DNA of 64,000 nucleotides from Chrysomallon squamiferum (Eukaryota > Animalia > Mollusca), in NCBI GenBank assembly GCA_012295275.1, contig CM022670.1, forward strand, positions 14,756,001-14,820,000. The letters are read 5' to 3'. The notes under the pieces are model-generated. The model was not told the DNA's origin. It saw only the letters and a list, made by a program, of their open reading frames with translations, and did no database searches. Below, piece by piece: positions 688 through 39,885 of this stretch. The first letter of the stretch is position 1. Each line of letters opens with the position of its first letter. The position numbers and the translations under genes were made by a program.

Positions 688-2566
688 ATTAAGGATGTGC
701 CACCTGATGAGCAGTTCTCCTTTGATTACAAGGTACATGTTGTTTATGTGTCATTTATTTTAACATCAGCTACTTTATTATTAACAACAACATGTAGCTG
801 CACTCAGTGTTGATACAGAGAAAACAGAATAAAAGAAAGACTGACTCATTGTGAACAGTAGATGATATATTTGTAACATAATATTTTGTCTTTCATTCCT
901 ACAAACAGATATACACAAACACATGTAATACACAGCATATACTCTTATATCTGACATATGTACACACACTAACACAAATTCATACTCTATCATACTTTCA
1001 TATATTTGCATAAAACATACTCTTACATACAGACATGCACACATTTTCTCACATAATATTTCTCTCTCACACACACACACACACACAGAAACACACACAC
1101 ACACATACACACGTATTATTAAATACATACATATTCACACATATGACATACACAGAAAGACATATGTACACACAACAAATACAGATCTAGATATCTGTGC
1201 ACAGAAAAACACTTGAAGTTAGTTGTAAAATTGTATGATCTACATGCCATGTCTAGATAACTGTAATCTGTAAATATTTTTCCTTGTGCAGGACACTGTC
1301 ACAGATTAGTTTGTTTAAAGTCACTCACTATTGCAGTTGTTCCGTTTCAGTGGGATATTGTGTCTAACAAAATCCAGCTCATAGCCATGAGCAGAATTGT
1401 CAAACTGACAGCTGGAAACTGGGAAAGTCTGTCACATCTGACAAATGTGTACACCAAAAAAATCTTCAACATTCCCCAGGTATGGCAATCATTACATAAT
1501 CAATAATTAGAATAGTTATTATCTTCTTTTAATATTAAATTTTTCTTATTTATTTAGTTTCATTATCATCGCATTTTCATTTTAATAGATTTTGATTTGT
1601 TTGATTTCATTATTACCTATTTTAATTTCATTATTTTTTTGTTTATTTAATTTCATTATTAGCTTATTTTAATTTTAATAGATTACGTTTATTTAATTTC
1701 ATTTTTGATAATCTGTAAAAACAGGTTTTTTTATGAATTTTACTTTCATGTAAAAACATGTTGCACTGTTAGTTTTAGTTGACACAGGATACTATCAAAC
1801 AGTAGTTCTGTTCTTTCAGTAATGTGTAATTAAGAACAACACTGAAATAAAGTGAGACATTTTCAAACATTTTACATTGTTGCATCATTCTAATATGTAG
1901 AACTACTGGTTTAGTTTGATATGTTATTCACATTATTACATTGTTCTAATATGTAGGACTACTAGTTTTAGTTTGATATGTTATTCATGTTATTCACATT
2001 GTTACTAGGACTACTGTTTTAGTTTGATATGTTATTCACATTGTTACGTTCATTAATGTAATTTATGAAGAATGCTGAAATAAAGTGAACCATTTTAAAA
2101 GTGTTGACATTGTTGTAGGGTGCAGACAGATGGAGTAATGATCTGTTTTTTGGAAACCAGCGAGTGGCCTGTCTCAACAACTGCATCATTCAACTGTGTA
2201 CAGCCATTCCAGACAAGTAATACATACATTTAACTTCACATTTCACCAGCCAAAATATTTCTAAATAAATAATTATTATATTGCATTTAATTTTAAAAAT
2301 TAAAAGGTGTTCCATAGAATTAATTTTTTGTGATTATTTATATAACACTTACATACATACATACATACATACATACATGTACACACACATATATATATAC
2401 ACACATACATATATACAGCCAGATATACTCACACATACATAAAAATAAACATACATATCAATACATACACATATTAATACATAATATAAATACACTCACA
2501 GACAAACACACACACATATGTACCTGTGTGTCTGTGTGTGTGTGTATACATAAATATAGGTGTTTT

Positions 2567-2597
<31 letters not shown>

Positions 2598-3855
2598 TTG
2601 CACACTATAAAATGACGTGCTAAATGTTTTGTCAGTAGTAATTAAGTATAACGAGTATAATCATGTTGCAGACTGGCAGTTACAGAAGAAATGCTCAAAC
2701 CTCTGCTGGAAGGTCTGAGTCTGGAGCAAGCCATTCAAGACAAACGTTTGTTTATGTGTGACTACGAAATCCTTACTGGAATACCCTGCAAAGAAGACTT
2801 CATTGTAAGCCTGGAGTCATTTCTTAGTAAACTTCATAGAAATAGATCTCTTCAGACCTCGTAGAATATATAGTAATCATATTAAGAGTTGATCATTTCT
2901 AAAGGATTTTATTTTGATAAAAGAGAAATGACGAGTTTTATTCTTGAAATCCAGTTCTTCAGAATAAGATGATTTTTTTTTCATGTTAAGCTGTTAAAAA
3001 TTTTGCACTAATAACAAACAGTTCAAGATAATTCTACAAAATTCATAGGATATATTATAATATTTAAACCACCTGTTACTTCTGTATATCTTTATATTTC
3101 TAAAACATTTATAATAATTAAATAAATCAATCAATCAATAATGATAATAATAATCTTTAAACAATTTATTACTTTGTGTATTACTTTGAATTTGTAGAAT
3201 CTAATAATCATATAATATTGTTTAACATAATACAATATAGTAAGTTATTTAAAGATCTTTGTTCTTACAAAGTAATAATACATACAAACAAATCTTTAAA
3301 TCACTTAATATGTTAAGCAGTTATTTAAACACATGTGTATGTGTGTGTGTCTGTGTATTTGTATGTAGATATTACTGTGTTTAAATAAACATTATGTTTA
3401 GTTGCTGTTTTGTTTTTCTCATCCAGTGTCCCGATCCTCTTGGTCTGTTTTTTCTGAATGGAAACAAGAGACTGGTTCCCATAGCAATCCAACTGTTCCA
3501 GAAACCTTCCCCAGACAACCCTGTATGTATCTCTTCTCAGTTTTAATCACCACATTTTTGATTGAATCATTTTACAATTAAAACCATTACTTTTAACAGA
3601 ACAGAACTATATTTGTATTTAGTGACCAACAGTCTACAAGTTTACTTGGTCACCATAAACTATAAGTTGTGTGTGTCTGTTTGTATGTATATGTATGATT
3701 GTGTATATAATATGTGTATGTAATTATGTACCTGTGTGTGTGTGTGTGTGTGTGTCTATATATATATATAAAGTGTGTGTGTGTGTATATCATATATATG
3801 TGTGTATATGTATTATGTATCTATGTATGTATATATGTAAAAAATGTGTAAGTAT

Positions 3856-3886
<31 letters not shown>

Positions 3887-6310
3887 ACATTAGAGAGAAA
3901 TAATCAGATGACAGAGAATGTGATGTATACTCTTGGGACTTGCATTGATTATCAGCTAATTTCCCAGCTTATCACCACTGTATGAATGCATTAATGTTAA
4001 GTAGATTTTAATTCTAACATTAAGCTGATCATGTGTCCCAGGGCATGTTGATCAAAGTGGATATTTCTCTCAGGGAACAATTAACACAAACTGTGGACTC
4101 ACTTAAACATTAATTTGTAATGGTTTATGAAACCACCAAGTGGCAAATCATTAACATTTATTTTGAAACGAGCATAATGTTAGACATGTACTGGCAAAAC
4201 ATGCATTTATTTTGTTAGCATTTCTTAAAACATGTTTTGAAACAGTTGTTTATTTTGATAGTATTTCTTAGACATATTTTTTTTAAATAAGTTTTAATAG
4301 TGCTAGAGTTTCCAAAAAAATATTTATTTTTAAATAAGTATTTATTATCTTAGTATTTCTAAAACAGTATATTGTGAAACTCTTAAAATGTACTTTGAAA
4401 CAGTCATTGATTATGTTAGCATTTCTTTCCCTGGTAATGTTGGCACAAACTAAATATCAGGATGTTGTTACTGCATCAAGGTAATTTTGTTATCTAGCAC
4501 TGATAGAAAAATTAGGAGTAATTTAATATTGAATATAACAGTTTTCTGCAATTTTATGCAAATTATGACATATAATATTTAAAAACAATTGTTTTAAATT
4601 CAGAAATGAACTGTATTTAATTTGGTATTGAAGAAATTAAATATTGTCAATTTAATGTAAATCCTGACATACTGATTTCATAAACAGTTGTTTTAAGTTC
4701 AGAAATGAATTGTATTTTGTTTAATACTGAAAATAACACAGTTGTGCAGTTTTGATATAAAATTACATCATATTGTATTCATAACTGTTTTAAGTTCACA
4801 AACAAACTGTTTTTTGTATATACGTGTAATAATAACATAACTGTTTTAAGTTCACAAACAAACTGTATATTGTGTTTATATATAATAATAAACAAGATCT
4901 TTTTTATTTTTTTCAGGTTTTCTTGCCAACTGATCCACCGAACACCTGGGCTATAGCTAAAATGTGGTTTAATCTTGCAGACTGTGTTGTCCACCAGTCA
5001 CTCGCTCATTTAGGTTTGTCACTTTTCTTAGTCAGAATATTCACCTACATCTGTAAACAACAGCTGTGTACATCACTTGTATACAACAGCTGTGTACATC
5101 ACTTGTATACAACAGCTGTGTACATCACTTGTATACAATGCAGCTGACATGTCAGAACAAAATGACAGACCATTTGTAATTATGTAACGTGTTCTCCAGT
5201 GAGTTAGAATTTGTATCAGGATCAGTATTTTAATTTGTAACTTTAACCATTTTCAGTTTTCTGGCACTGTTTAGTTTGTCAATACATCTTAGTATTAAAA
5301 AAATTCACCTCAATATTGGTGTTGCTGGCCATAGTAAACCCCAACAAAACTGTGCCTGTCCCACACCAGATTATACCATCATGATTTTTTATTTTTTATT
5401 TTATTAAATTAATCTCTATTTTAATATCTAGAGATCTGTATTCAAACAAAGTCCGTACTAGTCCAAAATATAACCCAGGATATTATAGCTGGGCATGGGC
5501 TATTTTATACTCAGAGGTATACTTTGGACTATACTTTGTAGACAGAATTTTATCTTGAGTTTTTTATGTCTTTTGGGGAATATATATATTAATAAATGTT
5601 TACTTGTGGTAGAATGTAGGAAAGTTTGTTTTATGATTTAGATCAATTTAATAAGCTAAAATGTTATTAAATACAGAATCTAGCTGCCATTTTGGAATTA
5701 TTCAAGTTAGGAAGAATACTGATATGGAAAGAGTCGGCATCTTTTTGTCATAAGTTAACATTTCATTAATTTTGTTTAATTATATATCTATCTTACTAAA
5801 TTATAATTTGTATACAGATCCTCTCAAATGATCGTCAACTTTGCAAGATGTTACATAATAAAAATTATTCAGAAAACATACATATTATTAATGGGTTTTT
5901 TTTAAATTCAGGGTACTGCTTATTTAATTTTGTGATTGTTATAAGAATTATTTGTATTAAAGTTGTAAACTGTCATTTATGTTTATTCTTATTTTCTCAT
6001 TAAATCTATAACTATCATTTTCATTTGATACTTTCTCTATTTTTTTTTTATTTTTTTTTGTATGTGTGTATGTCCTGCATTTACATGTGACTACATATTT
6101 TCTTTAAGTGAAAATGAATATGAGAGGACACCAAGTTAGAAACATTTATTAATTTTGAACTTTTCAAATGCAGGTTATACACACTTGTTGATGGAGGGTG
6201 TAACCGTGGCAACCCACCGAAACTTGTCCCAATCTCATCCAGTTTTCAAATTACTAGCTCCACATTTTCTTTACCTGATTGCTGTTAACAGGTAACATTT
6301 ATATCCGTCC

Positions 6311-6341
<31 letters not shown>

Positions 6342-9300
6342 AGTATATATGTCTGTGTGTGTGTGGGTGTGTGGGTGGGTGGTTGGGTGTGTCTGCATGA
6401 ATGTCCAGAATTTCTCATTGATAAATTTTTATAATTTACTGTTCAAGAATTTTGCATGAAATGAAATATATCCTGCATCACAAGACATATCACACATAAA
6501 CAAAATATACCAGATAATTAAACCTTGATTTCAGTTAAATTAAAAATAGCTGAATGTGTTTTGTTGTTTTTTCAGTCGAGGTCTGCAGACTATTCTTTCA
6601 CCAAATGGCTGGGTGGACAAAGTGATGAACATTGGAAGAAAAGGAATGTTCTATCTAATAAAGAAAGGGTAAACATTTTATTTATTTTCCTTGGATTATA
6701 ATTGATACCTATTTATGAATAGAAATAACAAAAACCAGTGATGATAAATAAATATATACACACACATACATATACAAACACACATATACATAAATATTTA
6801 TAGAGAAAGAAAAATAGATATTTTTATATATGTATATATATGTATCTACACACTCAGTGAGAGGTATAAGATTCATAAATATGTAGTGCCAAGTAATCTA
6901 AACTTTGATTTACTGTTGTTTTTGAAATTTATTTATTTATTTATTTATTCATGAGTATCATTTTATTTTTGTTTATCAATTTCCGTGGAGTTAAAATGTT
7001 TGTTACAAAGGCAACAGTTGTCTCCCCTGTACAATTTTGAGCAATAATATCTCGGTCCATTTTAATAAAAATAGTCTAACAAAGTTTCATGTCTGAGACA
7101 AATGATTGCACTCCAATTGTTTTTATATTTTACTTTATTAATAATTAAAAAAAAAAAAAAGACGAAGAAAAAAAAAAAAAAATAATAATTAAAAAAAAAA
7201 AAAAAAATAATATAATAATATTAACAACAACAACAGTAATAATAATAATAATAATCATCCTTCCTATATATAAATATACAGGGCACTCTCCCAGAGGAAT
7301 ATGAGTGATATGTTAGTAACTGATATTTTTTGGTATGAATATTTCCAAATTCAGTTATAGCACAGAGGTGTGTTAAACTGATTGATAGTGTGAAAAAAAC
7401 AGTTCTTTACAAAGTAAATTACAACAGATCAAACTTCTGTCAACCAACTGATCAGTAGAGTTGTCTAGTATTTTATCAGAAAGGTTATTTGCAGAAAATA
7501 TTAACTTTATTCTTTAAACTTCTTTATTTTACTATACAGTTATCTTTAAATGTTGTCATTTAAAATTTATAAATTTATATATATGAATCTTTTAAAATTT
7601 TTAAATATAATGACTGTTTCAAGAGTAGAAAATGATATTAAACTGTAGTATAACTTTTAAATTATTTGAAATTATAATTGCATAAACAGATGTGTATGTG
7701 AAGTTTAATAACACAGACCAAAGTTTTTCTAGTGTAGGTAGTATTTTCAGGACACTGTTAATTTTTGTAAATAATTATGCTTCTTTGTATTTATAATATT
7801 GATAATGAATTATAAAAATGAATCAATAAAAGATACATTCTATAACATTCACTGACAAACATAAACTGAAAATAATTGCAATCACTTTTTAATAATAAAA
7901 TAATTATTTATTTATTTATTATTTATCTATATTTTATTTAATTTTTTTTATTTTATTTTTGTTTTGTAATTTTAAAAAAGATATATAATTATTATTATTA
8001 TTATTATTTTTAATTTTTTTTTATATTATGTTTTTAGAGGATTCAGCATTCAATGCTTTTGTAATACTATTTCCTTAAACCTCATTAACAATTCTTGGAG
8101 TGTAGAGTTGTCTTTCTTTCTTTTTTTTGAAGATGTATTTTTGATGTGGTGTCTAAACAACAGCAAACATGTACTTAGTTTTTCTTTAAGGAAACACTAG
8201 GAAATAGTAAAATACGTTTATTTGTGGTAGAGCAGTTTTCCAGTGACTCACTATGTTCATTGTTGCAGGTTGGCTCAGTGGAGAGTGGATGTACAGGGCA
8301 CTCTCCCAGAGGAACTGAAAAGTCGTGGAGTAACTTTCATTTACACTAGAACAGAAACCCGATTTAATTTTGATAGTTACATTTGTTTTAAAACAGTACT
8401 AATAAAAATATATTTTATATTTTAAACAGTACTACTAAAAATAAATTTGTATTTTAAAATAGTACTAATAAAACAGTATTTTAAACAGCACTACTAAAAT
8501 ATATATTTGTATTTTAAAATAGTACCAATCACAATACATTTATATTTTAAAATAACTGATAAAAATGCATTTATATTTTAAAAGTATTAACAAAAATATA
8601 TTTATCTTTTAAAATAGTACTAATAGAAATACACTTATATTTTAAAATAACAGACAGAAATATATGTTTTAAAATAACTAATAATAACGCTTTTATTTTT
8701 TTAAATTGTATTAATAAAAATAATTTATATTATAAAATACCTGTAAAAAAATACATTTATATTTTAAAATAGCACTAATATAAATACATTTTTTTTTTTA
8801 AATAGTATTAATTGAAATACATTTATATTTAAAATAATTTAAAAAAATACATTTATAAAATAATGCTAATAAAAATACTTTTATTTTTTAAATTGGTACA
8901 AATAAAAATATATTTATATTTTAAAATAACACTAACATAAATACATTTTTATATATTTTTTAAAATAACTAATAAAAATACCTTTGATTTAAAATAACCA
9001 AAGAAAATTAATATATTTTTTAAAATACATCATAAAAATACTTATCATTAATAAAAATACATTTATCTTTTAAAATAACTAATAAATATATTTTTTTAAA
9101 TAACTAATATAAATACATGTTTATTTATATTTTGATATAGCTAGTAAAGATCCATTTATATTTTTTAATTAATTAATATATATATATATTTTAAAATAAC
9201 TAATAAAATATATTTACATGTGCATTTAAAAAAACTAATAAAAGTTGCATTTATATTTTAAAATAACAAAAATACATTTAACTATTAAAATAGTACAAAT

Positions 9301-12300
9301 AAATATATTTTAAAATAACAAAAATTTGTTATTTAATTCAGTTTTTATAGCATGACTAGGCTTTTATGTATATCTCATAACATTTATCATAATGTTTTAA
9401 TACACAAGGATTGTCAATAATTTTTTGGTTTGAAAGGCATGTAAACAGAATTAGAAATAATTTACAGTTTTATAAAATATTTGTAATTACTGAACATAAC
9501 CTTTTAATAAGTTGTAGCTATTTAAATTAATGTATTTATATCTTGTCCTAGCGAACAGTCTTGTATAAGAAATGAACACTTAATCAGTTTATATCTGTAC
9601 AGAGATCAAATTCAGAGTGTTTGATGATTGGTTTATTTCAGTTTACAGACTCCAGCATTCTGCCAGGATACCATTTCCGTGACGATGCTTTGCTTCTGTT
9701 TGAATGTATTGACAAATACATCAGAAATTACATCAGTCTATATTACAGTAAGAAAATATTTCATACAGTCTGGCAACACATTTTTGACTGGATATAGTTT
9801 TTTTTGAATTGTTGATTATTCTAGTTTGAAACACGTATAACATTCTGTTGAGACAAGAAAGTAAAAGATGGTCATGTGTATAAATGTATAAACATGTTTG
9901 CAACCAGAAGAAATAAAAATATATATATACATATATATATATTTTACAAATATAATTATCTACCCAGAAAATATGGAGAAAATAAAAGTAGAATACGTTG
10001 CAAATTAAAACAATAAAAGGCTTGACTGCCACTAGGATCTTCTCATTTTTTTTGATTTCCCTAAACTTAAAATTGTGAAAAATTCATTCAAAAACTACAA
10101 ACTGCAAGCCAAACTGATTTAGAACAAAGATACAAAATGTGTATCCACTTTTATTGTTTAACAAGTTCTAGACAATTTTTTTTCATGTATTGTTTCAAAT
10201 GAAGAAAACTCTAAGGTAGGTGTAAGTGTACAATACATAAACAGCTGAGTCAAACTGTTATTTATTTAATTTATTCAGAGAAACCTTCGATGATTGAAGG
10301 GGACTGGGAACTACAGGCCTGGGGCAGTGAGCTGGTGCAGGAGAAAGAAAAAGGCGGGGTCGGTTTACTGGTCTGTATTTAATACTTCTTATAACATTTT
10401 TGTTAATGTTCAGTTGAATCGGAATCTAAATATTAGTTTCTCTATAGTGGATTGATACTGGTATATATATTAATATTTTTTATATTTGATGTTTATCACA
10501 AAATTATCACAAAGTAATAATATTTAGCTAATAAATGAATAAATAATATAATAAAAAATAATAAAAATTTGTTATAAATATAAATAAAACTACATAAATA
10601 AATAAATAAATAAATGAAAATAATAATAATAAAATAAAATAAATAATACGTATGTTTTAGGCAAGTTAATGTTACGAATATTAGTAGAAGGTAAGAAATG
10701 CAGATATTAAGAATTAACATCCATGTTTGTTGTTGACTGTTTTTTCATGGCTTTTTGGTAAAAACTAACATTTTACTTCTTCTAATAAGATTGGAATTAG
10801 TTCAAACATGTTTTATCTGAAAACACAGAAAGACAGACAGACAGACACACACACACACACACACTACAGAGAATAACTGATAAGCATGTTTTACTAATTG
10901 CTACAGCTGAGTATGTCTTAACATGTGTTTTAATTTTTACATTATTCTAAAAATTACCTGTAAACTTCATAAATATTAAATGTTAAACATATGTCACAAT
11001 CAAATTTAACTACTGTGATTTGTAAAACTTTTATGAATTTCAAATTAAATAAATGAAAAAAAAAAAATATGATCTTGAATTCAAAGATTTTAACTGACAC
11101 GTATACGTCAAAAATAATAATACATAAAATTACTTCTAAGAATAAATTCAAAAAATAATTTTTTAAATTCAACAAAAAGCCTTCAAATAATTTAAATAAT
11201 AAATAGTAATAACTAGCGTCTCAAATAGGAAAACAACAATCACATTCTGTCTTACTTCATCCATGATATTAATTAGAAGATTTACATGTTTGAAATATTG
11301 TTGGATTGTCTATTGCTAGGCTTTCTAACTAATAAAGATTAACATAATAATTAATATTTTTAAATTATTGAATGATTGCTTACATGTGAATTCAGAACTA
11401 AACATTTGTTTTTAGCTAATTATTTTCTGCTGCAAATACTGTAGATATGATATGCAGTGTTATAATAGTGAGAATTTTAACATTTGCTTAAAAATAACAA
11501 CAAATGTAATAGGATACAATTTTATTATTAGAAATTACAAACAATGTGATTAAAAATAATTTGTTGTTGAATTTGAAATTTTATACTATTAAACTGAGCA
11601 TCCTCTATGGTATTGGATAATAATATCTATATAAATTGTATATGTTTGAAAGAAGGTCATTTCAAAACTGAAAAAAGTTTTGACAGTAAACTGAAACATA
11701 TTGAATTGCACTGAAATGTAACATTCATAAATTGCTTTTGATTTCAGGGAGTACCAAACAATGGGAAGTTTAAGACAGTGGAGGATATAGTGAAGATGTG
11801 CAGAACAATTGTGTACACATGCAGTGTGTCCCATGCCGCATCTAATTTCGCACATTACGAAGAGTACGCATTCCCACCTAACTACCCCACTTACTTGAGA
11901 GGACTGCCACCGAAAGACAAGGTGACACAGACATTAAATGATTTCTGTGGAATGTACCTATCAGAATACAGATCATTTCCACACACACACACACATACAT
12001 TAGTTTCTTTATCTTTTAAAAATATTATTAATCTTTTTGAATATTATTTTTGTTTAATATGTAGGAATGTTTTGTTTTCTAAAAGTCAAAACAGACATAT
12101 TCTAAAATCTAACTCATGAAATAATTGTTTTTTTTTTTCATATGCTTACTAAATTTTGTCTGTGTAAATAATGATCATATTTTATTAATGCTTGTTCTAT
12201 ATGAAGTCTTTATAATTATCTAGCTAAAACAAAACAGAAACAAACACATCTGAATATCTTTTTTATGTGTGTTGAAAATTTGTTTTCTTTTGACAAATTA

Positions 12301-13000
12301 CTAGTTTTTATTTGGAATTATTTCACTGAGTATTGTTTAATGTTTGACTTGGCAGACTGCACTGACAGAACTAGATATCCTAGGCTACCTGCCTGACAAA
12401 CCAACCACTCTGGATGTAATGGTTGTCACCAAGACCCTGAGTGTTCGGGGAACAAAAAGTATCGGAGACTTTGAGGTGCAGTACATCTTTGATCCAAAAG
12501 CAAGGGACACTGTGGATGAGTAAGTTGTTAAAGTTTACTGTGTGTGTAAAACTGTTGTGAGGCCATCAAAAATATTTTAAAACAACTTAAAACCTTAAAT
12601 TATTCTAACAAACAGATTGCATTCTTTGGTTATTTTTATTATTGATTTCAGGATGCATAACTGACAAAACGTTCAGAATCACCCATGTCTTCCCAGAAAT
12701 TGTTTTAAACATGGTTCTTGCTTGTGTTTGAACCTTGAATAATTGATTATTGACATTAGTGATTTATAAAAAAGAAAAAGAATTGGGATTATAAATATGA
12801 GAAATAAATCAGTAAAATGTAAGTAACAATACTGCATGATTATCAGAGTACTCTTATACAGAATTGTTTCTGTACTCAATTTCAGATTTAGAAAAGATCT
12901 TCGCGAAGTTAGCAAGATTATCAAAGAAAGAAACAAGAGCAGGGATCCTCAGTTCCCATACCTGGACCCAGATGTTATTCCCAACTCCATCGGCATTTAA
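688..13000 (+). CDS. Lipoxygenase copy A (animal arachidonate/PUFA LOX family), exons 2-15; PLAT exon 1 lies upstream of the window
   Basis: GT-AG exons 688-732, 1351-1479, 2119-2216, 2672-2804, 3427-3522, 4917-5013, 6174-6291, 6576-6668, 8269-8329, 9642-9747, 10279-10370, 11748-11921, 12356-12519, 12886-13000 join in frame without stops. LOX motifs present: PIAIQL, WAIAKMW, HQSLAHLGYTHL, HPVFKLLAPH, YHFRDD, DWELQAW, HAASNF, C-terminal IPNSIGI* (iron ligands His/His/His/Asn/C-terminal Ile). Confidence 0.95.
5057..5138 (+). repeat. 26-bp tandem repeat, three copies (two at 33722-33777)
   Basis: Unit acaacagctgtgtacatcacttgtat. Confidence 0.85.
8375..9325 (+). repeat. Degenerate ~32-bp AT-rich minisatellite in LOX intron 10 (shorter counterpart 36740-37280)
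   Basis: Recurrent tttatattttaaaatagtactaataaaaataca variants. Confidence 0.75.
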
Positions 13001-13049
13001 CAGTATCCTGAAAATACATGCGCTGCATACTAGTGAGAACAGTGAAATG

Positions 13050-15789: not shown

Positions 15790-16185
15790 AGTGTTTACGC
15801 TGAACCTCACACATTTAGCACGCATGGATACAGTACGTTATAGAACTAACGTCAACCTGAGTTACTCAAACGGTCCCCTTGATTTGGATCTACCTGAACC
15901 GTGGTTTGTTACGAACGAAACCAAGGGAGGGGCTTATTACTATCTGACGCCCGATGTAGTTTTCTTCAGCAATCTGATTGGCTGAAATAAATAAAAGAAT
16001 GTGTAGGCTGTCTCATGCAAATAGGTGTTCCGGAAGTAACTGTGAGAGGTCGTGCGTAATGCGATGCGTGTTATGTCAAATGGATAGGTATGGCACTGGT
16101 GGTAGCTTTCTCAAAGTCTTTGTGTTGAGAAGACAGGGAGTACTTTCTCTCTGCAGCAGATCTCTGTGAAAGTTCGCACCCGAAC
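15790..16185 (+). promoter_or_regulatory. Putative promoter/5' UTR of the FREM2-like gene; near-identical copy at ~43060-43461
   Basis: CpG-richer than its surroundings, with reverse CCAAT (attgg 15977-15981) and ETS-like ccggaagt (16030-16037), directly upstream of the first exon. Confidence 0.55.
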
Positions 16186-26855: not shown

Positions 26856-27630
26856 ATGGGCTGCAGTTCGAGTCGTCTAAACTCGGAATATCTCATTTAC
26901 ATCAGAACAGGCGACAGGAAAAATGCGGGAACCGACGGCAACGTCTACATAATACTCCACGACGACCAGAAAAACACCTCCGACACCATCACGCTGCACA
27001 ACTTTCTGCGAAACGATTTCGAGCAAGGTAGGTTAGACACCTTCACGGTGCCAAAAAGCAAACACTCTTCTCTGGGAAGAGTTGAGAAAATTGAAATCTG
27101 GAGGGACAATGCTGGGTTTGGTAGCGACTGGTATGTTGAAAGAGTTATGGTGGAAAACAGAATGACGAATGACATATCTGTGTTCCCGATATTGCGATGG
27201 ATTAAACCGAATTACCATTACGTGATAAAAAATCTGGACACGTCGCTTCCCCAGGAAGATGACAATTTAGAACAGAGGAACATGGAACTGACGGAAAAGA
27301 AATTACTCTACGAGTATGAACAAAAAATTCCTGGCATGCCCACTCAGGTAATGTTGTGATATTTGTATACAATAATATTGTTTTGATACCCTATTACTGA
27401 AGTTTGAAGATCACACGCAACCACCCACACAGGCATACCCACCCAAGTGTCCCACATTATGAGTTTTACATGTTCACCCTTTCACAGAAAATAGATGAAA
27501 GGAAAACTTTCCAAAATGTACAGATTTTGTTTTTAATTTTTAAAATTAAATATTGTGATAATTTCTCTAGTTGGTGGTTTATGGTTTGAAGTCTTCCACT
27601 TAAAATTATACAGATTACTGTTTTACCATG

Positions 27631-27710
<80 letters not shown>

Positions 27711-27795
27711 TGTGTGTAAGTGTGTGTGAGAGTGTTTGTGTATATGTCTGTGTGTTTGTGTGGGTGGGTTATGGGTGTGTCTGAGAGAGAGAGAG

Positions 27796-27846
<51 letters not shown>

Positions 27847-30800
27847 TAGTTGGTGATAGCTGAATTCAAACAAGACATTTGCTATCACGTATCTGATTTC
27901 CACAGAACATTAATATAACATGTTCTTACAGTTTCATCAGGCCTTTATTTCACATAATCAATTTGTTTTTAATTTGCTGCTTGGACTATTTCCCAGTCCA
28001 CTTAGTGCTCTGTTTCTGACTAATCTATGAAAGGCTGCCTTAAAGGCTTGTTAAAAAAAAAAAAAAATTTTTTTTTTTTTTTTTGTATACTTTTGGTTAA
28101 TTCTGGTTAATTCATAAAATGATATCTAATAAAAATAATGTTATTAACTACTCATTCCTTCAATCAAACAAGATTCATTCAAGTGATTTACATTTTTGAA
28201 ATGCATACACATTGAGTATTTGATACATATTACATCCCTTAAATTGGTTAGTGATATTTTAAATCAAAATACTGCCTTAGTTATATTTACTGTTAAAAAA
28301 ACATTTGATCTTATAAATCCACAATCAAGATTTCGTAGCTTAATATTTTCACCAAATTATAATCAGATGTGGTCTCTCTTATTAAAAATTCTTTATAAAT
28401 GCTGAGTAAACTGGTGAACCATATAAACATGCCTACCAGTTCTGAAAAACATGTCTTTACTTCTGACTGCCAGTTTCAGAAAATGGATAACTTTAAAGAT
28501 AAAATACGTTTCATGTATTTATAACGAAGAAACTATATTAGTAAAACAAATAAATAAATAAAACATAATGTGAAGGACATAGATGAACTTAGCCAGGATT
28601 CAGATAAATGTTGAGACTTTGACATTTTCTCTAGGCTGTTTGTGTGAGTTGATATGCTTTTTACTTTATATACGTTTCTTTATTTTTTTATTTTTTTATT
28701 TTTTTCTTAAGTAGTAGTAGATGCATAGAAAATACATTGTTTTTCTTCTCATTTACTATTGTTATGTTCACATTATATTTCACAGTATAAAAGTTAATTT
28801 ATTTAGGTGTAAAAATCGACATTCAATGCTTTTTTTTATATATAATGAATAAAGGCTGAAGCATAAATTCTTTATAATAATCATTGTTTTATTTTTTTAT
28901 TGTTAATGATTGGTTTTGTTATTGTTTATTTATTTTTATTTTTAATTATTTATTTGTTTTTAACTCTTTTTATTTATAAAGTGTTCACTGACTCAGCAAC
29001 AACAACATCGTTTATAAAACTGTTTGATTCTGCAGTTGATACAACAACAACATCAATAATAAAATATCTTTATTCTTTAATTGATATGATAATAATACTA
29101 GTAATAGTAATAGTAATAGTAGTAATATTAATAATAATAATAATACTAGTAGTAGTAGTAATAATAATAATAAAGATAATAACAATAATATTTTAACTTT
29201 GTTCTACATGGTTATCTATTACATACAGGTTGTTATTGTTGTTTTTGTTTGTATTTGTGTTTATTTTTGTTTGTTTATTGTTCTTTTCTAAGTAAATAAA
29301 ATTCACTCTTTAAATATTTTGCTTTTGTTTTAAGTCATTTAATCTGGTTTGCTTCAGTGAATTAAGGTCAACATTTCTAATTTCTTTTCAGAAAATGTAC
29401 ATTAAAACCTTTTCAGTCCTTATATTGATTGTTGACTTTTTTGAAACATTTTCTTTTCTTTTTTCTTCACTTGTTTAATCATCTCCAAAACAAGAATGTG
29501 ACCAAATAACAACTGAAATTTGCTTTCTGAAATCAACTATCGGTTAGTTTAGATTTGAAAGTAATGAAGATAACAGTGTCCCCAAATGACAGTTTCCCCC
29601 CTCAGAATCTCTGATAGTAGAAAACAGTGACAAGTTGTCATTTGTAATAAAAATTGGAACAGATGATTGATTAGGTTTGTTTTAGAGGATTGCAATTTTT
29701 TCTTAATTAAAATTTTATATCATCAATCAAAATTTATGTTTTTATTTTCATTTATTTATTTTATTTTTTTTTTTTTTTACTGTTGTATAGAACAATTTGA
29801 CAAAACTTAGGAACAGTCATTTTTTTTTTTTTTTTTTTTTTTCTTAAGTTTTCAAAAAAGGTTGTATATCATATTTTCATAATTTATTTTTGTTACTATG
29901 ATTTATTATCAGGTTAAGCAGGTGCCCCCTGATGAGAAGTTCTCCTTTGATTACAAGGTACATGTTGTTTATGTGTCATTTATTTTAACATCAGCTACTT
30001 TATTATTAACAACAACATGTAGCTGCACTCAGTGTTAATACAGAGAAAACAGAATAAAAGAAAGATTGACTCATTGTGAACAGTAGATGATATATTTCTA
30101 ACTAATATTTCTGTCTTTCATTCCTACAAACAGATATACACAAACACATGTAATACACAACATATACTCTTACATCTGACATATGTACACACACTAACAC
30201 AAATACATACTCCATCATACTTTCATATATTTAAATAAAACATACTCATGCATATAGACATCCCATGCACACATTCTCTCACATATACTTTCTCTCATAC
30301 ACAAACACAGAAACACACCCACACATATACACACGTGTTATTAAACACATAAATACATATTCACACATACGACATACACAGAAAGACATATGTACACACA
30401 ACATACAGATCTACATATCTATGCAGAGAAAAACACTTGCAGTTAGTTGTAAAATTGTATGATCTACACGCCATATCTAGATCACTTTAATCCGTTACAC
30501 GTAAATATTTTCCTTGTGCAGTATACTGTCACAGATTAGTTTGTTTAAAGGAAAGTTAGAGTCACTCACTATTGCAGTTTTTCTGTTTCAGTGGGATATT
30601 AAGTGTAAAAAAATGGACCTAATAGCCGTAAGCACAATTGTCAAATTGACGACTGGAAAGTGGGAAAATCTGTCAGATCTGAAAGATGTGTACACCAAAA
30701 AAATCTTCAACATTCCCCAGGTATGGCAATCATTACATAATCAATAATTAGAATAGTTATTATCTTCTTTTAATAATTAAATTTGTATTTAATTTCATTA

Positions 30801-33800
30801 TCATCTCATTTTGATTTTAATAACTTTCATATGTTTAATTTCATTATTACCTTATTTCAGTTTCAGTAGATTTCATTTATTTAATTTTATTATTATCTTA
30901 TTTTAATTTTAATAGATTACATTTTATTAATTTCATTTTTGCTAATCTATAAAAAAAAAATTTATGAATTTTACTTTCCTGTATAAAACATGTTGGACTG
31001 TTTGTTTTAGTTCATGCAAAAATATTTCCAAACACGAGTTCTGTTCTTTCAGTAATTATGAACAACACTGAAATAAAGTGAAACATTTTCAAATATTTCA
31101 CACTGTTATATCGTTCTAATATTTGATCTGTTATTCACACCCCAGATAGTCGGTAATTTTTTATTAACATTAAAAAATTTTCATTAATGTAATTATGAAG
31201 AATGCTGAAATAAAGTGAACCATTTTAAAAGTGTTGACGTTGTTGTAGGGTGCAGACAGATGGAGTAGTGATCTGTTTTTCGGAAACCAGCGAGTGGCCT
31301 GTCTCAACAACTGCATCATTCAACTGTGTACAGCCATTCCAGACAAGTAATACATACATTTAACTTCACATTTCACCAGCCTAAATATTACTAAATAAAT
31401 GACTGTTATATTGAATTTAATTTAGATAACTAATAGGTATGTTCCATAGAAATAATTTTGTTGTGATTATTTCTATAATACTTACATACATACATACATG
31501 CACATATATTCATACATAGATACATACATATACATGCATGTACATACATACACACACACACACACATATATATGCAGCCAGATATACTCACACATACATA
31601 AAAATATACATACATATCAATACATACACATATTATTACATAACATAAATACACTCACAGACATACAAAAAACACATACATAAATGTGTGTATATGTGTA
31701 TGTGCACGTATATATAGGTTGTTTTTTTATGTGTGTGTTATTTTTTGCACACTATAAAATGACGTGCTAAATGTTTTGTCAGTAGTAATTAAGTATAACG
31801 AGTATAATCATGTTGCAGACTGGCGGTTACAGAAGAAATGCTCAAACCTCTGCTGGAAGGTCTGAGTCTGGAGCAAGCTATTCAAGACAAACGTTTGTTT
31901 CTGTGTGACTACGAAATCCTTACTGGAATACCCTGCAAAGAAGACTTCATTGTAAGCTTGGAGTCATTTCTTAGTAAACTTCATAGAGATAGATCTCTTC
32001 AGACTTCGTAGAATATATAGTAAACATATTAAGGGTTGATCATTTCTAAAGGATTTTATTTTGATAAAAGAGAAATGACAAGTTTTATTCTTGAAAAGCA
32101 GTTCTTCATTATAAAATTATTTTCTTTCATTTAAACTGTCAAAAATCTTGCACTGATAACAAACAGTTCAAGACAAATCTACAAAATTAATAGATATTTA
32201 TATTTAAATATCTGTCACTTCTATAACTTTATATTCCTAGAACATTTTTAATAAATAAATAAATAAATAAATGAATAAATAAATAAACAAATAAATGAAT
32301 TATTTAATTAATCAATAATGATAATAATAATCCTTAAACAATTTATAACTTTGCCTATTACTTTGAATTCATAGAATCTAATAATCACATAATATTGTTT
32401 AACATAATACAATATACTAAGTTATTTAAAGATCTTTGTTTTTACAAAGTAATAATACATACAAACAAATCTTTAAATCACTTAATATGTTAAGCAGTTA
32501 TTTAAACACATGTGCATGTGTGTGTGTCTGTATATGTGTATGTAGATATTACTGTGTTTAAATACAAATTATGTTAAGTTGCTGTTTTGTTTTTCTCATC
32601 CAGTGTCCCGATCCTATTGGTCTGTTTTTTCTGAATGGAAACAAGAGACTGGTTCCCATAGCAATCCAGCTGTTCCAGAAACCTTCCCCAGACAACCCTG
32701 TATGTATCTCTTCTCAGTTTTAATCACCACATATTTTTTTATATGTTTATATCTGATTGAATCATTTTACAATTAAAACAGAAATATTTTTAAATAGTGA
32801 CCAACAGTCTAGAAGTTTACTTGGTCACAACAAACTATGAGTTGTGTGTGTCTATGTGTGGGTTTGTATATTTGTATGTATGTGTAAACTATGTACGTAT
32901 GTAAACTATGTATGTATGTATGTATGTATTGGTGTATATTTTTATGTATGTGAATGTATTGTATACGTGTGTATTTATGTATCTGTGAGTGTGTCTGTAT
33001 ATGTATATATATAAATATATTTTGAAACGAGCATTATGTTAAACATGTACTGGCAAAACATGATTTATTTTATTATTATAGCATTTCCTTAGACATATTT
33101 TTTTAAAATACGTTTTGATAGTGCTAGAGTTTCGAAACATATATTTATTTTGAAATAAGTATTTATTATCTTAGTATTTCTAAAACAGTATATTGTGAAA
33201 CTCTTAAAATGTACTTTGAAACAGTCATTGCTTATATTAGCATTTCTTTTTTCCCTGCTAATTTTGCCACAAACTAAATATCAGGATGTTGTTACTGCAT
33301 CAAGGTAATTTTGTTTGTTATCTAGCACTGATAGAAAAATTTGGAGTAATTAATATTGAAAATAACAGTTTTCTGCAATTTTATGCAAATTGTGACATAT
33401 AATATTTAAAAACAATTGTTTTAAATTCAGAAATGAATTTTATTTAGTTCAATACTGAAAATAACAGTGTGGTGCATTTTAATATAAACTTACATCATAT
33501 TGTATCCATATCTGTTTTAAGTTCACAAACAAAAACGACATTTTGTTCATATGTAATAATAAACTTCTCGATTCCTTTCAGGTTTTCTTGCCAACTGATC
33601 CACCGAACACCTGGGCTATAGCTAAAATGTGGTTTAATCTTGCAGACGCTTCTGTCCACCAGTCACTCACTCATTTAGGTTTGTCACTTTTCTTAGTCAG
33701 AATATTCACCTACATCAGTAAACAACAGCTGTGTACATCACTTGTAAACAACAGCTGTGTACATCACTTGTATACAATGCAGCTGACATGTCAGAACAAA

Positions 33801-36800
33801 ACACAGACCATTTGTAATTAGGTAACGTGTTCTCCAGTGAGTTAGAATTTGTATCAGACTCAGTATTTTAATTTGTAACTTTAACCATTTTCTGTTTTCT
33901 GGCACTGTTTAGTTTGTCAATACATCTTAGTATTAAAAAAAAAATTCACCTCAATATTGGTGTTGCTGGCCATAGTAAACCCCAACAAAACTGTGCCTAT
34001 CCCACTCCAGATTATACCACCATGATTTTTTATTTTTTATTTTTTAAATTAATCTCTATTTTAATATCTAGAGATGTGTTTTCAGATATAGTTGGGCATG
34101 GGCTATTTTATACTTAGAGGTATACTTTGGACTCTACTCTGTAGACAGAATTTTATCTTGAGTTGTTTATGTCTGTTGTACGTTTTTTAATAAATCTTTA
34201 CTTGCGGCAGAAAGTAGGAAAGTTTGTTTTATAATTTAGATAAATTTAATTACAAGCTGCCAATTTGAAATTATGCAAGTTAGAAAAAATACACTGATAT
34301 GTAAAGACAGTACTCTGTTTTGGAAAGAATCAGCATCTTTTTGTCATAAGTTAACATTTCACTCATTTTCTTTATATTTATTTTTATTTTCTCATTAAAT
34401 CTATAACTATCATTTTCATTTGATACTTTCTCTGGATCTTTTTTTTTTGTATGTTTGTATGTCCTGCATTTACATATGACTACATATTTTCTTTATGAGA
34501 GCACACCAAGTTACAAACATTTATTAATTTTGAACTTTTCAAATGCAGGTTCTACACATTTGTTGATGGAGGGTGTAACGGTGGCAACCCACCGAAACTT
34601 GTCCCAATCTCATCCTGTTTTCAAATTACTAGCTCCACATTTTCTCTACCTGATTTCCATTAACAGGTAACATTCATATCCTTGTGTGTGTATATGTGTG
34701 TGTTTCTATGTATATATATATATATATATGTATCTGAGTATATATATATATATCAGTGTGTGTTTCTGTGTGTCTCTGTGAGTGTCCAGAATTTCTTGGT
34801 GATAAAGTTTTATAATTTACTTTTCAAGAAAATACATCCAGCATCATAAGATATATCACACATAAATAGCCATTCTGTACGACAAAATATATCAGAGAAT
34901 CAAACCTTCAATTCATTTTATTTCAAAGTTTTCAGTTAAATTAAAAATAGCTGAATATTCCTGAGTTTTGTTGTTTTTCAGTCAAGCTCTGCAGACTCTT
35001 GTTTCACCAAATGGCTGGGTGGACAGAGCGATGAACATTGGAAGAGAAGGAATGTTCTATCTTGTAAAGAAAAGGTAAATATTTTATTTATTTTCCTTGC
35101 ATTATAACTGATACCTATTCATGAAAAAAATAACAAAAACCAGTGATGATAAATAAATATATACACACACATACATATACAGACACACATATACATAAAT
35201 ATTTATAGAGAAGAAAAAAATAGATATTTTGATATATGTAGCTACACACTCATACATTTTGTTTGATTTTTAATTTCTAAAGTAGTCTAAGTGAGAGGTA
35301 TAAGATTCATAAATGTGTAGTGCTTACTAATCTGTGAGAAATATGAAGAAACTTTGATTTGCTGTTGTTTTTTAAATTTATTTATTTATTTATGATATCA
35401 TATTATTTTTGATTAACAGTTTCTGTGGAGTTAAAAAAGTTACGAGTTAAAATGTTTGTTACAAAGGCAACAGTTGTCTCCCCTGTACAATTTTGAGCAA
35501 TAATATCTTAGTCCATTTTAATATTAATAGTCTAACACTGTTTCATGTCTGAGACAAATGATGTTACATCCGACTGTTTTTATATTTGATTTGATTAATA
35601 ATTCATAAAAAAGTAAAAAGAATAAATAAATAATTTTACAAATATATAAATAATATAATAATATTAACAAAAACAACAACGGTAATAATAATAATAATCA
35701 TCCTTCCTAGATATACATGAGTGATAGTTTGGTATGAATATTTCCAAATTCAGTCATAGCATAGAGGTGTGTTAAACTGATTGATAGTGTGAAAAACAGT
35801 TCTTTACAAAGTAAATTACAACAGATCAAACTTCTGTCAACATTCTGATTTAAACAGTTATCAGAAAGGTTATTTGAGGAAAATAATAACTATTCTTTAA
35901 ACATCTTTATTTTCCTATACAGTTTTCTTTATATGTTGTCATTTAAAAACTTTAAATATAAACACTGTTTCAAGAGTGGAAAATCATTTTAAACTGTAGT
36001 ATAACTTTTAAATTATTTGAAATTATAATTGCATAAACAGATGTGTATGTGAAGTTTAATAACACAGACCAAAGTTTTTCTAGTGTAGGTAGTATTTACA
36101 GGACACTGTTACTTTTTATAAAAATCATGTTACTTTGTATTTGTAATATTGATAATGAATTAAAGAAAGAATCAATAAAAGACAGATCCTGTAATATTCA
36201 CTGACAAACATAACTGAAAATAATTGCAATCACTTTTTATAATAAAATAATAATTTATTTATTTATCTATATTTTATTTTATTGTATTTTATGATTATTA
36301 TTTTTATTTTGATATAGTTTTTATTTATATAATTATTGTTATTGTTATTATTATTGTTTTAAATCCTTTTTATGGTTTTTTGGGGGGGCTTAGGGTTTTT
36401 TTCAGCATTCATTGCTTTTGTAATACGTGTTTTCTTAAACCTCATTAACAATTCTTGGAGTATAGAGTTGTCTTTCTTTCTTTTTTTTGAAGATGTATTT
36501 TTGATGTGGTGTCTAAACAACAGCAAACATGTACTTAGTTTTTCTTTAAGGAAACACTAGGAAATAGTAAAATACGTTTATGTGTGGTAGAGCAGTTTTC
36601 CAGTGACTCACTATGTTCATTGTTGCAGGTTGGCTCAGTGGAGAGTGGATGTACAGGGCACTCTCCCAGAGGAACTGAAAAGTCGTGGAGTAAGTTTCAT
36701 TTACACTAGAACAGAAGCCCGCTTTAATTTTGATAGTTAAAAAAAAAATATATTTATAAAAATAAATCTGTTTTAAAATAGTGCTAATAAAACAGTATTT

Positions 36801-38432
36801 TAAAGAGCACTACTAAAATATATATTTGTATTTTGAAATAGTACGAATAACAATACATTCATATTTTAAAATAACAAATAAAAATGCATATATATTTTAA
36901 AAAGATATTACAAAACATTTATTAATATTTTAAAATAGCACTAATATAATACATTTATTTTTTTAAATAGTATTAACTGAAATACATTTATATTTATAAA
37001 TAATTTTAAAAATACATTTATGTTTTAAAAATAACTAATAAAAATACCTTTGATTTAAAATAACCAAAGAAAATAAGTATATTTTTTAAAATACGATAAA
37101 AAACTTATCATTAATAAAAAATACATTTATCTTTTAAAATAACTAATAAAATATATATTTACATGTGCATTTAAATAATAATAATAATAAAAGTTGCATT
37201 TATGTTTTAAAATAACAAAAATACATTTATCTGTTAAAATAACACAAATAAAAATATTTTAAAATAACACAAATACATTTTTTTTATTTGAAAGGCATGT
37301 AAACAGAATTAGAAATAATTTACAGTTTTATAAAATAATTGTAATTACTGAAAATAACCTTTTAATAAGTTCTAGCTATTTAAAATAATGTATTTATATC
37401 TTGTCCTAGAGAACAGTCTTGTATAAGAAATTAACACTTAATCAGTGTATATCTGTACAGAGATAAAATTCAGAGTGTTTGATGATTGGTTTATTTCAGT
37501 TTACAGACTCCAGCATTCTGCCAGGATACCATTTCCGTGATGATGCCTTGCTTCTGTTTGAATGTATTGACAAATATGTCAGAAATTACATCAGTCTATA
37601 TTACAGTAAGAAAATATTTCATACAGTCAGGCAATACATTTTTGACTGGATGTACTTTTTTTTTAATTGTTGACTATTCTAGTTTGAAACACGTATAACA
37701 TTCTGTTGACACAAGAAAGTAGAAGATGGTCATGTATATAAATGTATAAACATGTTTCCAACCAGAAGAAATAATAATATATAGGTTTTTCTTTACAAAT
37801 CTGATTACCTACTCCAAAAATATGGAGAAAATAAAAGTAGAATACGTTGCAAATTAAAACAATAGAAGGCTTGACTGCCACTAGGATCTTCTTATTTTTT
37901 TCGATTTCTCTAAAGAGCAGAACTCTACACTTATTTGGATGTTGTTAAATATGTGCCTGAGATAAATTTTAACATAAAATTACTTTGTTTGTCAAAAAGC
38001 TTAAAGGAACAAAATATGAAATGAACCATTATAATATCAAGAACTTCAACAATTGTTTAAAAATTAGGTTGTAAGTTTACAATACACGAACAGCTGAGTC
38101 AAATCGTTATTTATTTAATTTATTCAGAGAAACCCTCGATGATTGAAGGGGACTGGGAACTGCAGGCCTGGGGCAGTGAGCTGGTGCAGGAGAAAGAAAA
38201 AGGCGGGGTCGGTTTACTGGTCTGTATTTAATACTTCTTATAACATTTTTGTTAATGTTCAGTTGAATCAGAATCTAAATATTGGTTTCTCTATAGTGGA
38301 TTTCTACTGGTGTATATATTAATATTTTTTAAAATTTCATGTTTATCATAAAATTATCCCTTTAATAATATTTGGCTACTAAATAAATAAATAAATAAAC
38401 AAAAAAATGTTATAAATATAAATAAATCTACA

Positions 38433-38479
<47 letters not shown>

Positions 38480-39849: not shown

Positions 39850-39885
<36 letters not shown>

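What the first reader, a model, noticed from the sequence alone, without database searches (positions are those of the whole stretch)
6580..6582. Adjacent near-identical lipoxygenases differ at the Coffa-Brash R/S stereo-switch (Gly in A, Ala in B)
Seen: spliced exons 8/9 give IAVN-S-R-G-LQTIL in LOX-A (GGT 6580-6582) and ISIN-S-Q-A-LQTLV in LOX-B (GCT 34986-34988). Known: the N+3 residue aligns with human ALOX5 Ala410 (INTKAREQL); Ala is typical of S-LOX and Gly of R-LOX such as coral 8R-LOX and ALOX12B, with some exceptions. Inference: a recent tandem duplication has produced an R/S enzyme pair by a single-nucleotide change, a natural version of the laboratory swap, possibly an uncharacterised invertebrate oxylipin-diversification array.
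Basis: partly seen in the sequence, partly recalled or inferred. Interest (0 to 1): 0.88.

Follow-up and report, generated by a model that had tools for sequence, protein, structure and literature searches.

The report
Tandem snail lipoxygenases, remodelled pockets
Two neighbouring snail lipoxygenase genes that are 89% identical differ at the known Gly/Ala chirality residue and at five other substrate-pocket residues, so they likely make different fatty-acid signal molecules, but a clean R-versus-S split is doubtful and no transcript of the Ala copy was found.

Summary
In detail: GGT 6580-6582 (Gly405, LOX-A) and GCT 34986-34988 (Ala405, LOX-B) align with coral 8R-LOX Gly427 and the ALOX5 Ala. 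The 'single-nucleotide R/S pair' reading is only partly supported. A and B differ at 55 of 506 residues, including 6 of 17 pocket positions against 49 of 489 elsewhere (p 0.006); synonymous changes are not clustered. Gly is ancestral and B's Gln-Ala is derived. A carries the Arg-Gly motif that in bony-fish enzymes gives mostly 12S product despite Gly (PMC10531496). A also has Ile at the 'invariant' O2-shield Leu, which is Leu in 122 of 122 homologues; spliced RNA contigs confirm this. All 6 spliced RNA contigs and all 4 contigs of an intron-bearing run that cover the codon read Gly, so the Ala codon and expression of B are unconfirmed. Gly and Ala paralogues share a contig in 8 other species in my sample. 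Best reading: a young tandem array whose pockets were likely reshaped by selection, probably giving a mixed 12S/8R versus S-only pair. It is a useful natural test system within a known family.

The parts
688..13000 (+). LOX-A, exons 2-15 (688-732, 1351-1479, 2119-2216, 2672-2804, 3427-3522, 4917-5013, 6174-6291, 6576-6668, 8269-8329, 9642-9747, 10279-10370, 11748-11921, 12356-12519, 12886-13000); exon 1 lies before the window start
   Evidence: GT-AG introns, open frame, iron ligands H362/H367/H549/N553/I670 present; Pfam Lipoxygenase on two exons
6577..6582 (+). LOX-A Arg404-Gly405 (CGA GGT): Coffa-Brash site with the ancestral Arg-Gly motif
   Evidence: alignments; Arg-Gly in 68 of 122 homologues; read in RNA contigs
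6592..6594 (+). LOX-A Ile409 (ATT) at the normally invariant O2-shield/clamp Leu (8R-LOX Leu431)
   Evidence: Leu in 122 of 122 homologues; C>A at B position 34998 in RNA contigs of X2, X3, X4 and in one X5 contig
26856..40915 (+). LOX-B, complete gene, 15 exons, 670 aa, PLAT + lipoxygenase domains (26856-27347, 29913-29957, 30592-30720, 31249-31346, 31819-31951, 32604-32699, 33582-33678, 34549-34666, 34982-35074, 36629-36689, 37500-37605, 38128-38219, 39619-39792, 40246-40409, 40801-40915)
34983..34988 (+). LOX-B Gln404-Ala405 (CAA GCT): derived Coffa-Brash site
   Evidence: Gln-Ala in 0 of 122 homologues; Gln seen in one X5 contig as Gln-Gly, Ala in none
30592..30720 (+). LOX-B exon 3 (helix alpha-2 region at the pocket mouth): 19 of 129 nt differ from A, most amino-acid changes B-derived
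40246..40409 (+). LOX-B exon 14 (helix lining the pocket bottom, 8R-LOX 620-627 equivalent): 21 of 164 nt differ from A
59529..60020 (+). LOX-C exon 1 (PLAT domain); the rest of this third copy, including its Coffa codon, lies beyond the window end

Best explanation
LOX-A and LOX-B are tandem duplicates of a conserved molluscan Arg-Gly lipoxygenase whose substrate pockets were likely remodelled by selection, so that A is predicted to give a mixed 12S/8R-type product and B an S-only product, rather than forming a clean one-nucleotide R/S pair. Shown: gene structure, intact iron ligands, the sequence differences, their enrichment at pocket positions, their polarity (B changed Gly to Ala and Arg to Gln; A changed the shield Leu to Ile), and splicing of A-type transcripts. 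Inferred from coral 8R-LOX: the fatty acid would enter tail-first (Lys186 at the Arg182 position, a small Thr/Ser568 at the Ala589 position), hydrogen would be removed at C10, and residue 405 with residue 409 would steer O2 to C8 (R) or C12 (S). Ala405 in B would close the C8 route. Gly405 in A would leave it partly open; the preceding Arg would damp 8R output as in fish enzymes, and Ile409 would shift it in a direction I cannot predict. No activity was measured and B was not seen transcribed.
For: Pocket positions differ at 6 of 17 versus 49 of 489 elsewhere (Fisher p 0.006; 5 of 16 and p 0.02 without the Coffa site), although these positions vary less than average among 25 orthologues (0.10 versus 0.23). 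Within 4 codons of pocket sites pN is 0.147 versus 0.035 elsewhere (p 4e-8), while pS is 0.126 versus 0.091 (p 0.46). Non-synonymous changes cluster (permutation p 0.0002), synonymous ones do not (p 0.52). Both frames are open and outside the pocket pN/pS is about 0.38, which indicates purifying selection. A+B form a clade (0.995) sister to the Gigantopelta Gly enzyme (1.0), and Ala arose in six separate groups within the 64-tip Gly-type clade. Fish Arg-Gly enzymes: 8R:12S 15:85, 21:79, 43:57; Gly-to-Ala gives 7:93, 0:100, 0:100; Arg-to-Ile gives 40:60, 41:59, 51:49 (PMC10531496 section 2.8 and Table 7). The Leu is described as a shield coupled to the switch (PMC13059375 section 7).
Against: pN near the pocket is not significantly above overall pS (p 0.063; p 0.014 against the intron rate), so positive selection is suggested, not shown. 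The Ala codon is in 0 of 6 spliced RNA contigs and 0 of 4 X5 contigs over the site; B's Ser365 codon is also missing from every contig over it. The fish enzymes are distant vertebrate proteins, and I found no characterised mollusc enzyme to anchor the product prediction. The pocket list comes from a docking control and review text on 8R-LOX and was mapped by hand through a sequence alignment; positions 182/186 and 599-606 lie near alignment gaps.
Confidence: 0.5

Rival explanations
1. A clean natural R/S pair: A is an R-lipoxygenase (8R-like), B is an S-lipoxygenase (12S-like), and Gly405Ala is the main cause.
For: The site is the Coffa-Brash position. The rule holds for most LOXs with a few exceptions (PMC13059375). 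The best PDB matches of orthologues are coral 11R- and 8R-LOX. Loss of the shield Leu in A could raise the R product. Ala arose repeatedly in duplicates.
Against: A has Arg-Gly, the motif of the documented Gly-yet-S enzymes. The solved R enzymes have Ile-Gly or Leu-Gly. 54 other residues differ, five of them at pocket positions.
Confidence: 0.2
2. B is a silent or decaying copy, or its Gln-Ala form is a rare allele of a copy-number-variable array; the Ala has no physiological role.
For: No B-type transcript in 4 RNA runs, while A-type and a third Gly type are present. In X5 a contig identical to the 3' part of B exon 9 (34994-35103) has, as its only listed upstream neighbour, an Arg-Gly contig. 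B carries more derived changes than A (32 versus 20) and has changed residues invariant in 25 orthologues, such as A400S, R404Q and I431V. The spacers hold broken gene fragments.
Against: B's frame, splice sites and five iron ligands are intact. Its changes are concentrated near the pocket rather than spread evenly. The RNA runs are one study and are contigs that drop variants. The runs held only 0.34-0.47 of exon 1's sampled words, so they may be other individuals or populations.
Confidence: 0.17
3. The pocket changes alter chain-length preference or oxygenation position (for example AA versus EPA or DHA, C8/12 versus C11/15) while both enzymes keep the same S chirality.
For: Many differences lie in helix alpha-2 and at depth-setting positions 419, 568, 602, 605. 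Fish Arg-Gly enzymes are already mostly S. The Coffa change had only minor effects in several mammalian ALOX15 orthologues (PMC10531496 discussion).
Against: Gly-to-Ala removed most or all of the 8R product in all three fish enzymes, so some chiral shift is expected.
Confidence: 0.09
4. The GCT codon, or the tandem arrangement, is an assembly or consensus artefact (a base error, or two haplotypes placed in series).
For: No contig of 5 runs shows C at 34987. No genome or raw reads were available for the window.
Against: The neighbouring Gln codon is real in X5. B differs from A at 95 coding positions without a frameshift. Introns differ by about 10% with many indels, and the two spacers have different content. 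X5 has four different contigs over the site, more than two alleles of one locus.
Confidence: 0.04

Closest known systems
Molluscan 'allene oxide synthase-lipoxygenase-like' PLAT-LOX orthologues (nearest named: Gigantopelta aegis P0001, 74% identity over exon 1; 76% to A)
   Same: Domain layout, iron ligands, the Arg-Gly motif (in A), length about 670 aa; A and B branch as sister to P0001.
   Different: B has Gln-Ala (0 of 122 homologues); A has Ile at the invariant Leu (0 of 122). The names are automatic: B has no catalase-like AOS domain, and I found no functional data for this clade.
Coral 8R-LOX (Plexaura homomalla, PDB 2FNQ/3FG1/4QWT) and 11R-LOX (PDB 3VF1)
   Same: Best PDB matches of the orthologues (E 1e-109 to 1e-104); Gly at the switch as in A; a basic residue at the Arg182 position and a small residue at the Ala589 position.
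   Different: They have Ile-Gly or Leu-Gly followed by Arg and keep Leu431. A has Arg-Gly-Leu and Ile at the 431 position; B has Ala.
Bony-fish Arg-Gly LOXs (zebrafish LOX1; N. furzeri, P. nyererei, S. formosus enzymes; PMC10531496)
   Same: Arg-Gly motif at the Coffa site as in A. The laboratory mutants Gly410Ala and Arg409Ile hit the same two positions that changed in B.
   Different: They are vertebrate enzymes and were not aligned here. B changes both positions at once (Arg to Gln, not Ile) together with many other pocket residues.
Other invertebrate LOX clusters with Gly and Ala paralogues on one contig (Patella, Lottia, Nucella, Sinanodonta, Bulinus, Ylistrum, Mizuhopecten, Antedon); Gly/Ala/other residues among stony-coral LOXs (PMC5793058)
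   Same: A Gly-type copy is kept and an Ala-type paralogue lies on the same contig.
   Different: Those pairs are older. The closest other G/A pair is 84.6% identical (Antedon) against 90.5% here over residues 170-580. The database is clustered at 90%, so equally young pairs elsewhere would be hidden.

Membership tests
Animal lipoxygenase (PLAT + LOX) | N-terminal PLAT domain followed by a lipoxygenase domain | tested here: met
   Pfam PF01477 on exon 1 of B and C, PF00305 on exons 8 and 13 of A and B; exon 1 of A is outside the window
Animal lipoxygenase (PLAT + LOX) | Iron ligands: three His, an Asn/His/Ser, and the C-terminal Ile | tested here: met
   H362, H367, H549, N553, I670 in both A and B
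Animal lipoxygenase (PLAT + LOX) | Invariant Leu one turn after the Gly/Ala switch (8R-LOX Leu431) | tested here: inconclusive
   Met in B (Leu409); not met in A (Ile409), against Leu in 122 of 122 homologues. The effect on activity is unknown.
Animal lipoxygenase (PLAT + LOX) | Dioxygenase activity on polyunsaturated fatty acids | not testable with these tools
   needs recombinant enzyme
R-lipoxygenase (for LOX-A) | Gly at the Coffa-Brash site | tested here: met
   Gly405 aligns with 8R-LOX Gly427
R-lipoxygenase (for LOX-A) | Aliphatic residue before the Gly, as in the two solved R-LOXs (a context feature, not a formal definition) | tested here: not met
   A has Arg404; 8R- and 11R-LOX have Ile and Leu; Arg-Gly fish enzymes make mostly 12S
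R-lipoxygenase (for LOX-A) | Mainly R-configured hydroperoxide product | not testable with these tools
   needs chiral HPLC
S-lipoxygenase (for LOX-B) | Ala at the Coffa-Brash site | tested here: met
   GCT 34986-34988 in the window; not confirmed by independent contigs
S-lipoxygenase (for LOX-B) | Transcribed and spliced | tested here: inconclusive
   0 of 6 spliced contigs from 4 RNA runs of one study are of the B type; contigs cannot show absence
AOS-LOX fusion protein | N-terminal catalase-like allene oxide synthase domain | tested here: not met
   B's model starts at Met 26856 with the PLAT domain and is 670 aa, like its 660-680 aa orthologues; the coral fusion is 1066 aa. No upstream exon search against an AOS domain was run.
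ALOX12B-like 12R-LOX | Alignment of the switch to the ALOX12B Gly | not tested
   no ALOX12B sequence was returned by any tool; its Gly is recalled only

The most novel reading that the evidence does not exclude
A young, still-evolving lipoxygenase array is exploring the O2-steering pair from both sides: one copy keeps Gly and loses the otherwise invariant shield Leu, the other keeps Leu and swaps Arg-Gly for Gln-Ala, and a Gln-Gly intermediate exists in the species. The copies make oxylipins of opposite chirality, and this is the youngest caught case of a Gly-to-Ala switch that has recurred at least six times in mollusc duplicates.
Probability: 0.25. Interest if true: 0.68.

Novelty: new variant of a known kind. 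Interest (0 to 1): 0.45.

Why it matters
The Ala-versus-Gly rule rests mostly on laboratory mutants and on distant enzymes, and Arg-Gly enzymes break it for reasons that are not understood. A natural pair 89% identical, with Arg-Gly, Gln-Gly and Gln-Ala forms and a Leu-to-Ile change at the coupled shield residue, would let a few expression and mutant assays show which residues evolution uses to redirect O2. It would also give product data for a large molluscan LOX clade for which my searches found none. The mechanism itself is known, so the gain is a test system and a recurrent evolutionary pattern, not a new kind of enzyme.

Tried and rejected
No whole genome is held, so copies outside the window, exon 1 of A and the Coffa codon of C could not be read. 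A search for short protein fragments over the site gave 5 hits among 14 candidates, 57-70% identical to the query and none from this array. Earlier-findings look-ups by place, words and sequence returned nothing. Lack of contig cover for B's Ala codon, Ser365 codon and intron-8 insertion is not taken as absence. In X5 the two contigs starting at 34994 sum to depth 98.5 while the one listed upstream contig has 70.5, which would fit a dropped variant branch; depth is a weak guide. Local mutation-rate or gene-conversion heterogeneity as the cause of clustering was rejected because synonymous changes are not clustered. Two haplotypes in series was rejected on intron divergence and different spacers. 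A branch-site codon test was not possible: only two coding sequences and no outgroup DNA. No fold was predicted, since the spliced window proteins could not be given as references and an orthologue's model would not settle product chirality. The primary papers on the switch and on the 8R-LOX structures (Coffa and Brash 2004; Neau 2009, 2014; Newcomer and Brash 2015; Jansen 2011) are not held; I rely on secondary passages. A possible link between a small residue at 365 and Ala405 (9 Ala versus 1 Gly among homologues with Gly, Ala or Ser at 365) comes almost wholly from one scallop clade and was not pursued.

Full report
Observation. The window is AT-rich animal DNA holding three tandem, same-strand copies of one gene (self-alignment). 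Exon models with GT-AG introns and open frames give LOX-A (exons 2-15, 688-13000), a complete LOX-B (15 exons, 670 aa, 26856-40915) and exon 1 of LOX-C (59529-60020). A search with the B protein found no further LOX exons in the window except a 14-codon repeat of the end of exon 1 at 61357-61398. Pfam gives PLAT for exon 1 and Lipoxygenase for the two exons tested in each copy. All five iron ligands are present in A and B. The reported codons are exact: Arg404-Gly405 (GGT 6580-6582) in A and Gln404-Ala405 (GCT 34986-34988) in B.

The site. I aligned two orthologues with the same numbering to PDB sequences. Position 405 falls on the Gly of coral 8R-LOX (Gly427; the offset was worked out by hand from His384/His389), on the Gly of coral 11R-LOX and on the Ala of ALOX5's INTKAREQL (the number 410 is recalled). 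ALOX12B was not returned by any tool and was not aligned. The nearest named protein is from Gigantopelta aegis (74% over exon 1), so the source is probably a related gastropod (inference).

Not a one-nucleotide pair. A and B differ at 55 of 506 residues and 95 of 1521 nt. dS is 0.104 and dN 0.055; introns differ at 644 of 6740 aligned columns away from gaps. I took 17 pocket residues of 8R-LOX from passages of PMC13059375 and PMC10968607 and mapped them through. Six differ: 405 G/A, 409 I/L, 419 V/A, 568 T/S, 602 V/I, 605 T/I. Elsewhere 49 of 489 differ (p 0.006; 5 of 16 and p 0.02 without site 405). These positions vary less than average among 25 hand-picked Gly-clade orthologues. Within 4 codons of them pN is 28/190 versus 35/993 elsewhere (p 4e-8), while pS does not differ (p 0.46). 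Non-synonymous changes cluster (p 0.0002), synonymous ones do not (p 0.52). Against a firm claim of positive selection: pocket pN exceeds overall pS only at p 0.063, and the intron rate at p 0.014. Polarised against the Gigantopelta protein, or by orthologue majority where that fails and after residue 578, 32 changes are B-derived, 20 A-derived and 3 ambiguous. Both copies have therefore moved.

(i) A's motif is Arg-Gly. Section 2.8 and Table 7 of PMC10531496 report that bony-fish enzymes with this motif make mostly 12S product (8R:12S 15:85, 21:79, 43:57). Gly-to-Ala gave 7:93, 0:100, 0:100, and Arg-to-Ile gave 40:60, 41:59, 51:49. The solved coral R enzymes have Ile-Gly or Leu-Gly. Gly alone therefore does not make A an R enzyme, and B changed both of the positions that were mutated in the fish study. 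(ii) A has Ile409 where 122 of 122 homologues and B have Leu. This Leu is described as invariant, a shield coupled to the Gly/Ala switch (PMC13059375 section 7) and a clamp that positions the substrate (PMC11003420 passages).

Reads. Five runs held part of exon 1 (0.34-0.47 of 47 sampled words; two studies), all as assembled contigs. Spliced contigs of all four RNA runs cover exon 9, and those of X1-X3 join exons 7-8-9 at the predicted GT..AG sites. All 6 spliced contigs over the codon read Arg-Gly. Three match A in exon 9, including Ile409 (X2, X3, X4). Three are a third type with Leu409 and other changes at 35024, 35026, 35029 and 35044 (X1, X2, X4). None carries B's Ala, Ser365, Arg418 or Ala419 codons. 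In X5, which holds introns, all 4 contigs over the codon read Gly, one of them with B's Gln before it. A contig identical to B from 34994 to 35103 is present, but its only listed upstream neighbour is Arg-Gly. The Ala codon is thus seen only in the window, and B's transcription is not shown. Contigs drop variants and the RNA is one study, so this is not evidence of absence.

Comparative picture. Of 122 homologues (the best 120 of 374 plus two; isoforms not removed) 70 have Gly and 52 Ala; 68 of the 70 are Arg-Gly and none is Gln-Ala. A FastTree tree built without residues 398-425 and rooted at the midpoint needs 11 G/A changes on 124 tips. A and B group together (0.995) beside Gigantopelta (1.0), inside a 64-tip clade (0.903) with 50 Gly and 14 Ala tips. 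The Ala tips fall in six separate groups, one of them weakly supported (0.32). Judged by shared contig length and locus tags, Gly and Ala paralogues share a contig in Patella, Lottia, Nucella, Sinanodonta, Bulinus, Ylistrum, Mizuhopecten and Antedon; the tags are adjacent in Nucella and Sinanodonta. I did not read their positions. The window's pair is the closest G/A pair in the sample (90.5% over residues 170-580; next 84.6%), but the database is clustered at 90% and would hide equally close pairs.

Mechanism. Shown: duplication, intact enzymes on paper, pocket-centred divergence, its polarity, and A-type transcripts. Inferred: tail-first binding with hydrogen removal at C10, as in 8R-LOX (Lys186 at the Arg182 position, Thr/Ser568 at the Ala589 position; PMC13059375 Fig. 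8 legend), so that O2 reaches C8 (R) or C12 (S). Ala405 would close the C8 route in B. A would keep a partial 8R output, modified by Ile409 in an unknown direction. I put this at 0.5, a clean R/S pair at 0.2, a silent or rare B at 0.17, same chirality with changed substrate or position at 0.09, and an artefact at 0.04.

Literature seen. PMC10531496: section 2.8 whole, Table 7 and passages. PMC13059375: section 7 whole, passages and legends. PMC10968607, PMC5793058, PMC11003420, PMC3840004, PMC9787790: passages only. Coffa and Brash 2004, Neau 2009 and 2014, Newcomer and Brash 2015, Jansen 2011: reference entries and second-hand statements only. No supplements were read; the alignment figure S6 of PMC10531496 could bear on the Arg-Gly comparison. 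Searches listed no paper describing this array or a recombinant mollusc LOX; only the top 12-25 hits of each were seen, and subscription journals are mostly not covered.

Verdict. A real and correctly placed difference inside a known family and a known rule. It is more complex than a one-base switch and not yet shown to be an expressed R/S pair. Its value is as a compact natural test of Arg/Gln404, Gly/Ala405 and Leu/Ile409. Novelty: new variant of a known kind; interest 0.45.

Noticed in passing
window 6592-6594: LOX-A has Ile at the 'invariant' shield Leu (Leu in 122 of 122 homologues); confirmed in spliced RNA contigs of three runs. A also changed P555, Q556 and I401, each invariant in 25 orthologues.
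   Followed up: partly
window 59960-60020 and 61357-61398: The 3' end of LOX-C exon 1 occurs twice: a divergent version in frame (25 of 135 nt differ from B in codons 120-164, against 13 of 357 before), then about 1.3 kb later a B-like remnant with its donor site followed by B-like intron 1. This suggests recombination between paralogues.
   Followed up: partly
window 16040-17170 and 43320-43600: Intronless, stop- and frameshift-broken FREM-like fragment (Pfam Frem_N, E 1e-56) in the A-B spacer; a shorter related piece lies in the B-C spacer.
   Followed up: partly
window 48980-51870 (+): Five exons of the 3' part of a ribonucleotide reductase large subunit (Pfam Ribonuc_red_lgC on two exons), open in frame, only in the B-C spacer. 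I saw no 5' exons upstream by eye; possibly a truncated duplicate.
   Followed up: partly
window 21180-23400 and 46000-48100 (-): Calcium-binding EGF and Sushi exons of a minus-strand gene in both spacers, with largely different exons retained in each; possibly fragments of one duplicated EGF/Sushi gene.
   Followed up: partly
runs X1, X2, X4, X5 laid on window 34979-35076: At least one further expressed Gly-type copy or allele that matches neither A nor B, and a Gln-Gly form in X5, so the array is larger or more polymorphic than the window shows.
   Followed up: partly
window 13040-14040 and 40919-41370: Tandem repeat of roughly 28-nt units just after the stop codon of both copies, about 1 kb long in A and 0.45 kb in B.
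   Followed up: no
P0001 (Gigantopelta aegis protein), after residue 578: Its C-terminus does not align with any homologue and lacks the terminal Ile; the public gene model is probably wrong there.
   Followed up: no
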